Source: a virus
Lineage: Duplodnaviria; Caudoviricetes
DNA length: 64,000 bases
Direction: 5' to 3' (one strand)
IMG/VR virus record: IMGVR_UViG_3300028283_000231
Below are positions 51 to 25,846 of this stretch, piece after piece. Both the position numbers and the translations under genes were made by a program. The number at the start of each line of letters is the position of its first letter. Within the stretch, counting starts at the first letter, position 1. The notes below the pieces were generated by a model, which was not told the DNA's origin, did not search any database, and worked only from the letters and a program-made list of their open reading frames with translations.

Positions 51-106
51 GAATACTTACAGCAAATAAAAAACTTTCTTCCAAAAAGTGAATAAAAAGT
101 ATTCTG
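51..106 (+). ncRNA. Stem-ACAGCAA structured RNA motif, copy 1, containing a Gly(UCC)-like anticodon stem-loop
   Basis: GAATACTT (51-58) pairs with AAGTATTC (97-104); ACAGCAA at 59-65; inner hairpin ACTTT-CTTCCAA-AAAGT at 73-89. Confidence 0.5.
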
Positions 107-443: not shown

Positions 444-542
444 GCGGAGGTAGTTTAGTGGGAAAATTGCCATGATCAGCCATACTGTTTAAGTGCAGAT
501 GAATTTGGTGGGTAGTCAAAGGTTCGAATCCTTTTCTTCGCT
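444..542 (+). ncRNA. tRNA-like RNA with Gly-type acceptor, D and T arms and an expanded, non-canonical anticodon arm
   Basis: Acceptor GCGGAGG/TCTTCGC plus U73, D arm GTTT-AGTGGGA-AAAT, T arm AAAGG-TTCGAAT-CCTTT; about 34 nt replace the 7-nt anticodon loop. Confidence 0.7.
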
Positions 543-544
543 CA

Positions 545-650
545 GGGTGGTTGGTATAATAGGTGAAACCATCAATGTTCTCGCCCTTCCCAGTAGCTTC
601 GGTGATTAATAGAACTTCGGTTCGCTGACCAAGGATAAAAGAGAACGCCC
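545..650 (+). ncRNA. Branched structured RNA of unknown class
   Basis: GTTCTC/GAGAAC and CCTT/AAGG stems, two C-UUCG-G tetraloop hairpins (GAAC-TTCG-GTTC is perfect), 5' GGGT able to pair with 3' GCCC. Confidence 0.45.
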
Positions 651-656
651 AACAAT

Positions 657-739
657 GCGGCTATCGTATAATGGCAACGAGAGTTAGATTATGTCGGTCT
701 TCCAAACCGAGGATGTGAGTTCGATTCTCACTAGCCGCT
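657..739 (+). tRNA. tRNA-Gly(TCC) with a hairpin insertion in the D loop
   Basis: Acceptor GCGGCTA/TAGCCGC, anticodon arm TCGGT-CTTCCAA-ACCGA, T arm GTGAG-TTCGATT-CTCAC; D loop contains extra AAC-GAGA-GTT. Confidence 0.85.
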
Positions 740-815: not shown

Positions 816-897
816 TGGCCCTGTAATGGCAGAGTCTTCTAAACTCTAAGCGCATAATGGAAACTGAAAATAAGGGTTCGAGTCCCTTCTGGGTCAC
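816..897 (+). ncRNA. D-armless tRNA-like RNA with Arg(TCT) anticodon loop and long variable region
   Basis: TGGCCCTG/CTGGGTCA acceptor-like stem, only TAATGGC in place of a D arm, AGAGT-CTTCTAA-ACTCT, T arm AAGGG-TTCGAGT-CCCTT. Confidence 0.6.
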
Positions 898-23999: not shown

Positions 24000-24843
24000 T
24001 GTGATTGATTCTGAATTAAAGGCTTATCTAATTGGACTTTTTTATGCTGATGCTTATCTATCAGATCGTGTTTTACAATTATATTTGTCTATAAAAGACA
24101 AAGAGTATGTTGAAAAATTAGCAAATATATTAGGAGTTAAAACACATAATAAAAAATTATCTATTGGATTTAATATATGCAACAAAAAAATTGTAGATTC
24201 CTTGTATAAAATGGGATTTATTAAAAGGAAATCATACCAAAGAGATGATATAGTCTTTAAAAATATACCAGATGAATTAAAAAGACACTTTATTAGGGGG
24301 TATTTTGATGGTGATGGAACAATATACATATCTAAATATAAAAAGAAAAATGTTGATTGGAAGGAAAGTATTAAATATGGAATTGGTTTTATATCAATAA
24401 ATAAAGAATTATTGAATAGTATTAAAAATTACTTCTCTGTATCATTAAGTTTATCAGATAAAAAACTGAGAAGTGAAAACTCTGGAAGATTTATAAGTGA
24501 TATTAACGATGAAGATCCATATGGTGAAGAACAATGGGAAAACAACGAAATTAAATATATTAGACTGATTTATAGTGGAAACATTATTTGTAAAAAAATA
24601 TTAGATTTTTTATATGAGGGATCTACTATCTATATGGATAGAAAACATGATAAATATAAAGAGATAAGTATATTTAAACCGAAAAATTATCATTTTCATA
24701 AAAGAAGTAATAAATGGAGATATGTGTATGATGATAATGGATTAAAGAAGTATAAATTGTTTAAAACAGAAGATGAAGTTAAAAACTTTATAAAAAATAA
24801 AATTAAAAATTATGAAAGCTTTACTAGCAAAATGGTTGGATAG
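23983..24843 (+). CDS. Two-motif LAGLIDADG homing endonuclease with AP2-like C terminus
   Basis: AYLIGLFYADA and HFIRGYFDGDG; overlaps both DUF2828 fragments. Confidence 0.88.
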   Translation: MKINFDVIDSELKAYLIGLFYADAYLSDRVLQLYLSIKDKEYVEKLANILGVKTHNKKLSIGFNICNKKIVDSLYKMGFIKRKSYQRDDIVFKNIPDELKRHFIRGYFDGDGTIYISKYKKKNVDWKESIKYGIGFISINKELLNSIKNYFSVSLSLSDKKLRSENSGRFISDINDEDPYGEEQWENNEIKYIRLIYSGNIICKKILDFLYEGSTIYMDRKHDKYKEISIFKPKNYHFHKRSNKWRYVYDDNGLKKYKLFKTEDEVKNFIKNKIKNYESFTSKMVG

Positions 24844-25846
24844 AAAAGGTCCAAAGGCAAATAAAATTAGAAAATATCTTGGTTTAACACCAAAGGATTA
24901 CAGAAAGATGATAGTATCGCTATCACAGACTGTTGAGCAGTTAATGTGCGCAAAGCAATTTGAAGGCATTAACTACGAACACGTTCCTTCTGTAGCTATG
25001 AACAAGTACAGAAAAGCTTTCTACAAGAAAGATTCTGGTAGGTTCGCAGAATACATCGCAAATGTAAAGAGTGGTGTTGCCAAGATGTGCGCAAGCGCTA
25101 TCTACCCATACCAACTTTACGACGCTTTCCTAAGAGCTAGGACAGAATTCGATAATTTGGCTATTGAGGCTCAATGGTATTCGTTGCCAAACTACATGGA
25201 AGGATCAACCGAGAGGTTGCTTCCAATGGTTGATACATCGGGTTCTATGGAATTCTATGGTGGATTACCAGCAAGAGCAGGTTGGTCACTTGGTCTTTAT
25301 ATTTCTGAAAGAAACGAGAGCATTTTCAAGGACGCTTTCATGACTTTCCATACTCATCCAAAGATGATGTACTTACAGGGTAGCATCGCCGAAAGGGTTC
25401 GTGCTATCAGAGGAGTAGAATGGAAAGGTACTACAAACCTTGAAGCAGCGTTTGAATTATTGCTTAACAAAGCAATTGAGAACAAGATTTCTGAAGCAGA
25501 AATGCCAACAGTTATCTTGATCTTATCAGATATGCAGTTTGACCCATCGAAAGCTTGCTACAACGCAAACGCTTACGAAATGATGAAAGCTCATTACGCT
25601 GCAGCTGGATATAAGATTCCAAGAATCATCTTCTGGAACCTTAGAGCAGCAGAGGATAAAGTAACAGCATCAGCATTTGACGAAAATGTTGGTCTTGTAT
25701 CTGGTTTCAGCCCAAGTGGTTTGAAGGCTATTCTTCAAGGAGAAGAAATTCAAGATGAAGTAAAGGTCGAACCAAAGAAAGAAACTCCTTACGAATTGAT
25801 GATGAAAGTCATTGACGGTGAGAGATACGCAGCAGTTACTATATAA
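24812..25846 (+). CDS. DUF2828 protein, C-terminal fragment with vWA domain
   Basis: LLAKWL, INYEHVPSVAM..Y.KAF, MIDAS VDTSGSM, ILSDMQFD, IIFWNL. Confidence 0.88.
   Translation: MKALLAKWLDRKGPKANKIRKYLGLTPKDYRKMIVSLSQTVEQLMCAKQFEGINYEHVPSVAMNKYRKAFYKKDSGRFAEYIANVKSGVAKMCASAIYPYQLYDAFLRARTEFDNLAIEAQWYSLPNYMEGSTERLLPMVDTSGSMEFYGGLPARAGWSLGLYISERNESIFKDAFMTFHTHPKMMYLQGSIAERVRAIRGVEWKGTTNLEAAFELLLNKAIENKISEAEMPTVILILSDMQFDPSKACYNANAYEMMKAHYAAAGYKIPRIIFWNLRAAEDKVTASAFDENVGLVSGFSPSGLKAILQGEEIQDEVKVEPKKETPYELMMKVIDGERYAAVTI

What the first reader, a model, noticed from the sequence alone, without database searches (positions are those of the whole stretch)
444..542. tRNA-Gly-like scaffold whose anticodon loop is replaced by a 34-nt insert
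Seen: intact acceptor (G1-C72, C2-G71, U73), D arm and T arm, but the anticodon loop is replaced by GATCAGCCATACTGTTTAAGTGCAGATGAATTTG, which contains CTGT/GCAG and TCA/TGA pairings; no U33-anticodon can be placed. Inference: an aminoacylatable but non-decoding tRNA mimic, a decoy, or a tRNA with a small intron that needs cleavage and RtcB ligation. RtcB is the tRNA-splicing ligase in archaea and animals, and one is encoded in this window.
Basis: partly seen in the sequence, partly recalled or inferred. Interest (0 to 1): 0.7.

Follow-up and report, generated by a model that had tools for sequence, protein, structure and literature searches.

The report
Anticodon-less tRNA look-alike in huge phage
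A giant lake phage keeps, inside its tRNA gene cluster, a perfectly conserved tRNA-shaped gene that has an irregular 47-base hairpin where the anticodon arm should be. It cannot read codons and fits no known tRNA intron type, so it is most likely a tRNA mimic of unknown job.

Summary
Window 444-542 scores as tRNA in Rfam (38.6 bits, cut-off 29). Its acceptor, D and T arms and its tertiary-core bases are intact. About 39-50 nt stand in place of the anticodon arm. No single excision gives a 5-bp stem with U33 and a purine at 37. There is no bulge-helix-bulge motif and no splicing endonuclease, and the insert's pairings are no better than in shuffled sequence.

The 99 nt are identical in the 735-kb phage LR756501, although neighbouring spacers and the RNA next door have diverged. 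A third lineage lacks the gene altogether. Contigs from RNA libraries cross it unspliced.

The RtcB in the window sits beside a split gene whose close homologue folds like Ro60, so it looks like an RNA-repair pair and not a splicing ligase.

My odds:
- Conserved non-decoding tRNA mimic (decoy, Ro60/Y-RNA-like adaptor, or processing handle for the adjacent 106-nt RNA): about 0.5.
- Young pseudogene: about 0.25.
- 'Enigmatic' megaphage-type mini-intron: about 0.2.

Relatives do carry clean mini-inserts, and this scan has seen such phage tRNA inserts before on other DNA. Function is unproven, because no sequence variation exists to test the structure.

The parts
444..450 (+). Acceptor stem, 5' strand (GCGGAGG)
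   Evidence: Pairs 7 of 7 with 535-541, two of them G.U. Rfam alignment.
453..467 (+). D arm: stem GUUU/AAAU and loop AGUGGGA with the G18-G19 pair of Gs
   Evidence: 4 of 4 pairs. A14, G15, GG and A21 are present.
468..517 (+). Central 50 nt that replace position 26, the anticodon arm and the variable loop. The predicted fold is an irregular hairpin of 16 pairs in four short stems with apical loop UUAAGU.
   Evidence: Fold -10.7 kcal/mol, z about -0.2 to -0.4 against shuffles. No canonical anticodon arm by any single excision. No BHB motif. Identical in LR756501.
518..534 (+). T arm: stem AAAGG/CCUUU and loop UUCGAAU
   Evidence: 5 of 5 pairs. G53, U54, U55, C56, A58 and C61 are present.
535..542 (+). 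Acceptor stem 3' strand (UCUUCGC) and discriminator U. No CCA is encoded; CAG follows.
   Evidence: The canonical Gly tRNAs of the array also end in GCU without CCA.
545..650 (+). Context: a 106-nt structured RNA that starts 2 nt after the element. It is present or absent together with the element. A functional link is inferred, not shown.
   Evidence: 545-592 and 631-650 are identical in LR756501, while 593-630 has 17 mismatches and 10 gap columns. Both units are missing in lineage L027/L030. No Rfam family matches.
22272..23312 (+). No link to the element is shown.
   Evidence: PF01139 90.6 bits; NCBIfam RtcB family below the equivalog cut-offs.
23529..25846 (+). Context: a Ro60-like gene (DUF2828 + DUF7788/vWA) in two pieces (23529-23999 and 24812-25846), with a LAGLIDADG endonuclease ORF (23983-24843) between them.
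   Evidence: Pfam. The pieces match residues 4-127 and 145-486 of the unsplit homologue P0124. The model of P0124 hits Ro60/TROVE structures first.

Best explanation
Window 444-542 is a single-copy, conserved gene for a tRNA-shaped RNA that does not decode.

Inferred from the anatomy:
- It is transcribed with the phage's tRNA array.
- It is recognised through its intact acceptor/T-arm elbow by the enzymes that need only that part of a tRNA: RNase P at its 5' end, 3' trimming and CCA addition, and probably T-loop modification.
- It then folds into an L-shaped body whose anticodon limb is an irregular, roughly 16-pair hairpin with no anticodon loop. It therefore cannot pair with a codon, and it lacks the C35/C36 that bacterial GlyRS needs.

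Its job would be that of a tRNA mimic. Three sub-mechanisms remain open. I rate them as shares of the whole, summing to 0.5:
(a) A decoy or sponge for host or phage factors that bind tRNA bodies, about 0.2.
(b) A Y-RNA-like adaptor for the phage's Ro60-like protein and RtcB, about 0.15.
(c) A processing handle whose 3' cleavage sets the 5' end of the adjacent 106-nt RNA, with which it is gained and lost, about 0.15.

Shown: the anatomy, the lack of any anticodon arm, the conservation, the distribution, and the Ro60-like/RtcB pair. Inferred: transcription, processing, and every functional role.
For: - The tRNA body is intact down to the tertiary-core bases, and the Rfam score is above the gathering score.
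- No excision restores an anticodon arm.
- 99 of 99 bases are identical to LR756501. In the same alignment the spacers show 57/66 and 27/43 identity and indels of 14 and 84 nt. The middle of the adjacent RNA has 17 mismatches plus 10 gap columns in 38. The odd tRNA-like genes at 657-739 and 817-896 show 76/83 and 70/80.
- A nearby protein of the two genomes is only 52% identical.
- The element is also identical in assemblies from other samples and in a DNA contig of the LR756501 type.
- It is single copy in both genomes.
- An RNA-library contig bridges 209-747 with no joint and no differences. This is weak evidence, because DNA carry-over is not excluded.
- The element and the 106-nt RNA are absent together in lineage L027/L030.
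- A Ro60-like gene sits beside RtcB, and the same order occurs in L053.
- Bacterial Y RNAs with tRNA-like domains that work with Ro60 are established (PMC4201824).
Against: - There is no sequence variation among the known copies, so there is no covariation test of the hairpin.
- The hairpin's stability is ordinary.
- The element is missing in a related lineage, so it is dispensable there.
- The array contains decaying and rearranged tRNA pieces: element B has a duplicated 5' half, and its LR756501 copy is truncated with a broken T stem.
- For (b): the gene is 22 kb from the Ro60-like gene, its ends lie in the acceptor stem and not in a Ro-binding stem, there is no YrlA match, and no tRNA-like RNA lies next to the Ro60-like gene in three relatives.
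- For (a): no target is known.
- No significant complementarity to other parts of the genome was found.
Confidence: 0.5

Rival explanations
1. Young or hitch-hiking pseudogene. A tRNA gene of the array lost its anticodon arm through an insertion or an illegitimate recombination in this endonuclease-rich region. It has not yet had time to decay, or survives only as a spacer that tRNA-processing enzymes still cut.
For: - No anticodon can be placed, and the insert's fold is ordinary.
- The gene is absent in lineage L027/L030.
- The array holds clear debris. The 5' half of this element recurs as a stray copy at G000 23797-23817. Element B is truncated by an ORF in LR756501 and has lost G53 there.
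- DUF559, GIY-YIG and LAGLIDADG endonuclease genes lie in and around the array.
Against: - There are zero changes in 99 nt, while the middle of the RNA 50 nt downstream (593-630) has 17 mismatches and 10 gap columns in 38, and the spacers differ by 14-37%.
- All 16 stem pairs of the three arms and all core bases are intact.
- Other odd tRNA-like genes in the same array have accumulated changes over the same time.
Confidence: 0.25
2. Intron-bearing tRNA of the 'enigmatic' megaphage kind. An unknown protein machinery cuts out about 26-30 nt and a ligase such as RtcB rejoins the halves. The product would be an unusual decoding tRNA, for example ARAGORN's Phe(GAA) or a Gln(UUG) form.
For: - ARAGORN with the intron option calls tRNA-Phe(GAA) with a 26-nt intron.
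- Lak megaphages of the same clade have tRNA genes with small introns that are identical across genomes (PMC6784885).
- Relatives hold clean cases. LR756501 207096-207213 becomes a perfect tRNA-Arg(UCU) on removal of 45 nt. L042/L043 becomes a perfect tRNA-Asn(GUU) on removal of 41 nt. LR756502 388572-388674 has an intact 5-bp anticodon stem closing a loop that holds a 31-nt insert.
- RtcB is encoded in the window.
Against: - Unlike those clean cases, no excision here gives a normal arm. The Phe form has U37, no nucleotide 26 and a 7-nt variable loop. The Gln form has an A.G mismatch, no nucleotide 26 and a 3-nt variable loop. Other forms have A33.
- No BHB motif, no EndA or Archease, and none of the hairpin-plus-CWGCAA signature of the clean inserts.
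- The RNA-library contig is unspliced.
- No insert-free allele is known.
Confidence: 0.2

Closest known systems
'Enigmatic', highly conserved tRNA introns of Lak megaphages (Devoto et al. 2019, PMC6784885)
   Same: Huge phage of the same broad clade (Mahaphage; PMC7162821). An oversized gene in a tRNA cluster. The insert sequence is identical across genomes. No known splicing mechanism.
   Different: There, removal of the insert leaves a tRNA with an assignable anticodon, and insert-free alleles exist. Here no anticodon arm can be made, and the only lineage without the insert lacks the whole gene.
YrlA-type bacterial and phage Y RNAs bound by Ro60/Rsr (Chen et al. 2014, PMC4201824; Rfam RF02553)
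   Same: A non-decoding RNA with tRNA-like D and T arms and an acceptor stem. The genome encodes a Ro60-like protein, and that gene lies next to RtcB.
   Different: In YrlA the RNA ends form the Ro-binding stem and the acceptor stem is closed by a loop. Here the ends are in the acceptor stem. There is no RF02553 match. The gene is 22 kb from the Ro60-like gene and not beside it. No Ro-binding motif was recognised.
Archaeal and eukaryal protein-spliced tRNA introns (bulge-helix-bulge, EndA/TSEN, RtcB)
   Same: An insert in the anticodon region. An RtcB-family ligase is encoded by the same genome.
   Different: No BHB motif, no endonuclease or Archease gene, and no canonical mature product.
tmRNA
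   Same: A tRNA-like acceptor and T arm, with the anticodon arm replaced by other RNA. Related phages encode tmRNA (L027).
   Different: Only 99 nt long, with no pseudoknots, no tag reading frame, a full D arm, and no tmRNA match in Rfam or ARAGORN.
tRNA-like processing handles such as mascRNA at the MALAT1 3' end, or the tRNA-like parts of MHV68 TMER transcripts (from my own knowledge, not checked here)
   Same: A tRNA-shaped unit that is not used in translation. Cleavage of it by tRNA enzymes sets the end of the neighbouring RNA. Here a 106-nt RNA starts 2 nt downstream.
   Different: Those are eukaryotic nuclear or herpesviral systems. Nothing here shows that the neighbour depends on this unit.
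Stable RNAs 'species 1 and 2' (rnaD, rnaC) in the phage T4 tRNA cluster (from my own knowledge, not checked here)
   Same: Small stable RNAs of unknown function, encoded among phage tRNA genes and cut out by tRNA-processing enzymes.
   Different: No sequence relation was tested, and their architectures are not known to match.

Membership tests
Canonical decoding tRNA (Rfam RF00005) | Score at or above the family's gathering score over the whole model | tested here: met
   38.6 bits against 29, model 1-71
Canonical decoding tRNA (Rfam RF00005) | 7-bp acceptor stem, D arm, and T arm with the conserved T loop and core bases | tested here: met
   7/7, 4/4 and 5/5 pairs. U8, A14, G15, GG, A21, C48, G53, UUC, A58 and C61 are present.
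Canonical decoding tRNA (Rfam RF00005) | 5-bp anticodon stem closing a 7-nt loop with U33 and a purine at 37 | tested here: not met
   None in the gene as it stands, and none after any single excision with normal geometry. Default ARAGORN does not call it.
tRNA-Gly (bacterial identity set, PMC9976931) | G1-C72, C2-G71, U73, G10-Y25 | tested here: met
   Read from the sequence. The gene sits among four Gly tRNA genes.
tRNA-Gly (bacterial identity set, PMC9976931) | C35 and C36 in an anticodon loop | tested here: not met
   A GCC triplet exists at 479-481, but only in a loop with A33 on a 4-of-5 stem that holds two G.U pairs and an A.C mismatch.
BHB-type (archaeal or eukaryal) tRNA intron | Two 3-nt bulges separated by a 4-bp helix, placed so that excision yields a tRNA | tested here: not met
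   Exhaustive scan (strict 3-nt bulges, up to one mismatch in the central helix). Every candidate destroys the T arm or gives a nonsense product.
BHB-type (archaeal or eukaryal) tRNA intron | Splicing endonuclease (PF01974) in the genome | tested here: not met
   Nothing in this record. The best hit in the complete 735-kb relative is 16.9 bits against a cut-off of 27. No Archease.
BHB-type (archaeal or eukaryal) tRNA intron | RtcB-family ligase in the genome | tested here: met
   Window 22272-23312, PF01139 90.6 bits. However, it is paired with a Ro60-like gene.
BHB-type (archaeal or eukaryal) tRNA intron | Spliced RNA product | tested here: inconclusive
   RNA-library contigs bridge the insert unspliced and show no joint. 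Contigs cannot show absence of a rare or small product.
Megaphage 'enigmatic' mini-introns (PMC6784885) and the clean inserts seen here in relatives | Removal of one segment leaves a tRNA with a normal anticodon arm | tested here: not met
   Met by LR756501 207096-207213, L042/L043, LR756501 204246-204333 and LR756502 388572-388674. Not met by this element.
Megaphage 'enigmatic' mini-introns (PMC6784885) and the clean inserts seen here in relatives | Insert identical across related genomes | tested here: met
   99/99 with LR756501.
Megaphage 'enigmatic' mini-introns (PMC6784885) and the clean inserts seen here in relatives | Alleles with and without exactly the insert | tested here: not met
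   The only lineage without it (L027/L030) lacks the whole gene and the next RNA as well.
Group I intron in a tRNA gene | Ribozyme core of about 200 nt or more, matching Rfam RF00028 | tested here: not met
   The insert is 34-39 nt with no match. A real one is found in relative L026 at 117.8 bits.
YrlA / Y RNA (RF02553) | Ro60 orthologue encoded by the genome | tested here: met
   The split DUF2828+DUF7788 gene. The model of its unsplit homologue hits Ro60 structures first, E 3e-8, TM up to 0.61. PF05731 itself finds nothing.
YrlA / Y RNA (RF02553) | RNA gene adjacent to the Ro60 gene | tested here: not met
   About 23 kb apart. No tRNA-like RNA next to the Ro60-like gene in L053, L054 or L055.
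YrlA / Y RNA (RF02553) | Match to the family model; RNA ends form the Ro-binding stem | tested here: not met
   No RF02553 match even at E up to 10. The ends lie in the acceptor stem.
YrlA / Y RNA (RF02553) | Binding to Ro60 | not testable with these tools
   Needs a pull-down or a gel shift.
tRNA pseudogene | Loss of constraint: substitutions at the neutral rate and decay of stems and core bases | tested here: not met
   0 changes in 99 nt against diverged flanks, with the core intact. A very young pseudogene is not excluded.

The most novel reading that the evidence does not exclude
Huge phages of this clade make a class of tRNA-bodied RNAs whose anticodon limb is replaced by a custom hairpin. 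These RNAs would be processed and CCA-tailed like tRNAs. They would then act off the ribosome, either as adaptors that bring the phage's Ro60-like ring and RtcB ligase to damaged tRNAs, or as decoys that soak up host tRNA-cutting defence nucleases. Alternatively, the element is spliced by a protein route not yet known in bacteria or their viruses.
Probability: 0.2. Interest if true: 0.8.

Novelty: new variant of a known kind. Interest (0 to 1): 0.45.

Why it matters
Phage tRNAs are now seen as weapons against host defences that cut tRNAs, and megaphage tRNA 'introns' have stayed unexplained since 2019. This element is a sharp test case. It has a full tRNA body and is held unchanged across diverged genomes, yet it has no way to decode.

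If it proves to be stable and unspliced, it would add a tRNA-topology mimic to the small list of tRNA-like regulators (tmRNA, YrlA). It would also give a handle on what the phage Ro60-like/RtcB pair works on. If it is spliced, it would point to a splicing route unknown in bacteria. If it is debris, it shows how fast endonuclease-rich tRNA arrays churn.

Tried and rejected
- **Homologue searches.** Exact-pattern scans of IMG/VR for the acceptor plus T loop, and for the D arm plus T loop, found only unrelated neighbouring tRNAs or nothing. A scan for the neighbouring CorA protein found nothing. The conserved tRNA-Gly(CCC) used as an anchor found nothing in IMG/VR and one JGI contig of the L027 lineage that lacks the element. 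blastn against 50,697 phage records gave only LR756501/LR756503. A looser scaffold pattern gave 21 loci, mostly ordinary Gly tRNAs plus the L042/L043 clean insert. So no diverged orthologue exists for a covariation test.
- **Internal duplication.** The 5' half resembles 495-518, but the score is not significant (p 0.16).
- **Similarity to the LR756502 insert.** Not significant (p 0.39).
- **Antisense targets and primer-binding sites in the 108-kb record.** Only chance 11-12-mers.
- **Pairing of the insert with the 106-nt RNA or other array parts.** Not better than shuffles.
- **Other RNA families.** Rfam at E up to 10 gives nothing but tRNA for 430-665.
- **HDV-like or theta ribozyme reading of 545-650.** By eye I could not fit the nested double pseudoknot, and Rfam gives no hit. 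Left open.
- **Phage GlyRS (TIGR00389).** None found.
- **Sigma-70 promoter and terminator scan of 1-1400.** Nothing above shuffles. Bacteroidetes-type promoters are not covered by that scan.
- **Short ORF from ATG 499.** It runs to about 609. With no variation in its conserved part, coding cannot be tested, and I do not propose it.
- **Read laying.** Stretches without cover in runs X16, X4 and X7 say nothing. The low word shares of most DNA runs came from generic tRNA parts.

Full report
**Setting.** The window is bases 24481-88480 of a 108-kb IMG/VR virus record. Its closest public relative is the 735-kb uncultured phage LR756501/LR756503, at 84.9% identity over 76% of the first 8 kb. That is the largest genome of Al-Shayeb et al. 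2020. The paper places it in the Mahaphage clade with the Lak megaphages and predicts Bacteroidetes hosts (PMC7162821).

The finding lies in a tRNA array that runs from about 4 kb upstream of the window to position 1300. Its neighbours are tRNA-Gly(GCC), (UCC) and (CCC) at 113-352 and a fourth tRNA-Gly(UCC) with an enlarged D loop at 657-739.

**The observation.** Rfam's tRNA model matches 444-542 from end to end at 38.6 bits (gathering score 29).

- The acceptor stem has 7 of 7 pairs, the D stem 4 of 4 and the T stem 5 of 5.
- The T loop is UUCGAAU and the D loop holds the GG pair.
- U8, A14, G15, A21, C48, G53, A58 and C61 are all in place.
- The model has to skip 39 nt (472-510) where 11 columns of the anticodon arm belong. 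Default ARAGORN does not call the gene.

In the gene as it stands, the only 5+7+5 hairpins have A33 or U37 on weak stems. I then removed every possible single segment, allowing 0-2 nt at position 26 and a 3-9 nt variable loop. Only five products have U33, a purine at 37 and four or more stem pairs, and all five lack nucleotide 26 or have a 3-nt or 9-nt variable loop. ARAGORN's intron mode forces tRNA-Phe(GAA) with U37, no nucleotide 26 and a 7-nt variable loop.

The central 50 nt can fold into an irregular hairpin of 16 pairs at -10.7 kcal/mol. That is what shuffled sequences reach too (z -0.2 to -0.4).

**Not an intron of a known kind.**

- An exhaustive scan for bulge-helix-bulge motifs finds none that leaves a tRNA.
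- The tRNA-splicing endonuclease family is absent from this record and below its cut-off in the complete 735-kb relative. Archease is absent from both.
- The insert is far too small for a group I intron and matches no Rfam family.
- Of four sequencing runs laid on 200-900, the two RNA libraries gave contigs that run through the element: 209-747 in one and 326-476 in the other. They show no differences and no joint. This shows at most an unspliced form. DNA carry-over is not excluded, and contigs cannot show that a small spliced product is absent.

**Contrast with relatives.** The same group of phages does hold clean cases.

- LR756501 207096-207213 becomes a perfect tRNA-Arg(UCU) when 45 nt are taken out of the 5' strand of its anticodon stem.
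- IMG/VR loci L042/L043 become a perfect tRNA-Asn(GUU) when 41 nt are removed.
- LR756501 204246-204333 and LR756502 388572-388674 have intact 5-bp anticodon stems closing loops that hold inserts of 16 and 31 nt.

The two stem-splitting inserts share one layout: a short lead, an 8-bp hairpin, UYNCWGCAA, and then 8 nt. Neither has a BHB motif (for the Arg gene). The element studied here has neither that signature nor a clean excision. Devoto et al. 2019 reported 'enigmatic', highly conserved tRNA introns in Lak megaphages (PMC6784885). Earlier notes of this scan led me to that paper.

**Conservation and distribution.** Against LR756501 the element is identical at 99 of 99 positions. The rest of the same alignment compares as follows.

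| Stretch | Identity to LR756501 |
|---|---|
| The five conserved canonical tRNAs (Gly x3, Pro) | 71-73 of 73 |
| tRNA-Arg(UCU), 1145-1217 | 40 of 73 |
| Spacers | 57/66 and 27/43, plus indels of 14 and 84 nt |
| Odd tRNA-like gene 657-739 | 76/83 |
| Odd tRNA-like gene 817-896 | 70/80 |
| Middle of the adjacent RNA (593-630) | 17 mismatches and 10 gap columns in 38 |

A protein encoded 2 kb away is 52% identical between the two genomes. The divergence right next door argues that the block is not simply young, so the insert looks constrained. With one informative comparison this remains moderate evidence.

The element is identical in assemblies from other samples and is single copy in both genomes. 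Its only paralogous trace is a stray 5' half at G000 23797-23817.

A third lineage (ENA contig L027, JGI contig L030) has the same three Gly tRNAs. They are followed directly by the UCC gene, so both this element and the 106-nt RNA behind it are missing there. No diverged orthologue was found in phage records, IMG/VR or JGI metagenomes. Covariation therefore cannot be tested.

**The RtcB argument.** RtcB is real (22272-23312). The genes behind it carry DUF2828 and DUF7788 in two pieces, with a LAGLIDADG ORF between them. The pieces match residues 4-127 and 145-486 of an unsplit 486-residue homologue. A confident model of that homologue (pLDDT 88.7) hits Ro60 structures first: frog and human Ro60, Deinococcus Rsr and a Thermus phage Ro60, with E 3e-8 to 1.5e-5 and TM up to 0.61.

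The RtcB-then-Ro60-like order recurs in contig L053 but not in L054 or L055. In bacteria, Ro60, tRNA-like Y RNAs and RtcB form an RNA quality-control and repair group (PMC4201824). In jumbo phages RtcB is read as repair of cleaved tRNA (PMC7824862). This weakens the inference that RtcB marks a splicing system for this gene.

It also raises the idea that tRNA-shaped RNAs of the phage are Ro60 partners. For this element that idea fails three membership tests: adjacency, topology and the family model. It therefore stays a minority sub-hypothesis.

**Aminoacylation.** The acceptor end carries G1-C72, C2-G71, U73 and G10-U25, as bacterial tRNA-Gly does. The C35/C36 determinants (PMC9976931) cannot be placed. 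I found no dimeric-type GlyRS in the 735-kb genome. Efficient charging is therefore doubtful.

**Verdict.** The best-supported reading, at 0.5, is a conserved, non-decoding tRNA mimic that tRNA-end-processing enzymes can still handle. Its role is open between three options:

- a decoy;
- a Ro60/Y-RNA-like adaptor;
- a processing handle for the adjacent 106-nt RNA, with which it is gained and lost.

A young pseudogene (0.25) is favoured by the debris in this endonuclease-rich array and by the gene's absence in one lineage. A megaphage-type mini-intron (0.2) is favoured by the clean cases in relatives, but it is contradicted by the lack of any acceptable product.

The element is a new variant of known kinds (tRNA-like RNAs, and insert-bearing megaphage tRNA genes). 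This scan has met related phage tRNA inserts before on other DNA.

Noticed in passing
window 23529-25846: A Ro60-like gene (DUF2828 + DUF7788/vWA) right after RtcB. It is split into two ORFs by a LAGLIDADG endonuclease ORF (23983-24843). The Pfam TROVE model misses it, but the fold of its unsplit homologue matches Ro60 structures.
   Followed up: yes
window 51-106 and 744-811; also near 20425 and 20597, and about 41 nt before the window start: Repeated 'ACAGCAA' elements: a 6-7 bp stem enclosing YUYACAGCAA and, in the two array copies, an anticodon-stem-loop look-alike. Both array copies are 100% identical in LR756501. Rfam's Dictyostelium Class I RNA model scores 37.1 and 25.7 bits, below its cut-off of 41.5.
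   Followed up: partly
LR756501 207096-207213 (L024, minus strand); L042:4747-4845 and L043:816-914: Clean mini-inserts that split the 5' strand of the anticodon stem: tRNA-Arg(UCU) with 45 nt at 29/30, and tRNA-Asn(GUU) with 41 nt at 28/29. They share one layout: short lead, 8-bp hairpin, UYNCWGCAA, 8 nt. No bulge-helix-bulge motif in the Arg gene; L042/L043 was not scanned. This links the ACAGCAA motif to intron-like inserts.
   Followed up: partly
window 545-650: A 106-nt structured RNA between the element and the next tRNA. Its outer parts (545-592, 631-650) are identical in LR756501, and its middle is replaced by different hairpins. The motif CGCCC occurs twice and can pair with the 5' GGGUG either way. 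No Rfam family matches.
   Followed up: partly
L003:6795-6900 (685-579 nt before the window start): A 106-nt tRNA hit (40.7 bits) that is a composite. A stray 5' half resembling the element studied here is followed by a tRNA-like gene with a 6-nt 'anticodon' loop. In LR756501 the 5' half is replaced by an ORF, and the T stem has lost G53.
   Followed up: partly
window 657-739: tRNA-Gly(UCC) with a 14-nt insertion in the D loop. The inserted part differs between this genome and LR756501, while the rest is identical.
   Followed up: no
window 817-896 and 983-1101: Two more odd tRNA-like genes. One has no D arm and a long variable region (Rfam 30.5 bits). The other has its acceptor stem closed by a loop, which is the YrlA-type topology. 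Both are conserved in LR756501 (70/80 and 117/119).
   Followed up: no
LR756502 388572-388674 (L031:273-375): A 103-nt tRNA-like gene with GCG...CGC-U ends and an intact 5-bp anticodon stem. Its 38-nt loop reads CUC, then a 31-nt insert, then AUAA. The insert's 3' end pairs with the CUC. ARAGORN calls tRNA-Met(CAU).
   Followed up: partly
LR756501 204246-204333 (L024, minus strand): An 88-nt tRNA with an intact anticodon stem and a 23-nt loop. Removing 16 nt after position 37 gives tRNA-Lys(UUU). ARAGORN prefers an ochre-suppressor reading (UUA).
   Followed up: no
L026:6712-6952: A group I intron (Rfam 117.8 bits) inside the tRNA array of a related metagenomic phage contig, next to a partial tRNA hit.
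   Followed up: no
L027:19774-20166 (minus strand): A phage-encoded tmRNA (Rfam 71.4 bits) in the related lineage that lacks the element.
   Followed up: no
L027:8337-8423 and L030:186-272: Another tRNA-like gene without an anticodon, in the third lineage. Its 5-bp stem closes a 25-nt loop that holds a small palindromic hairpin. No excision gives U33.
   Followed up: partly
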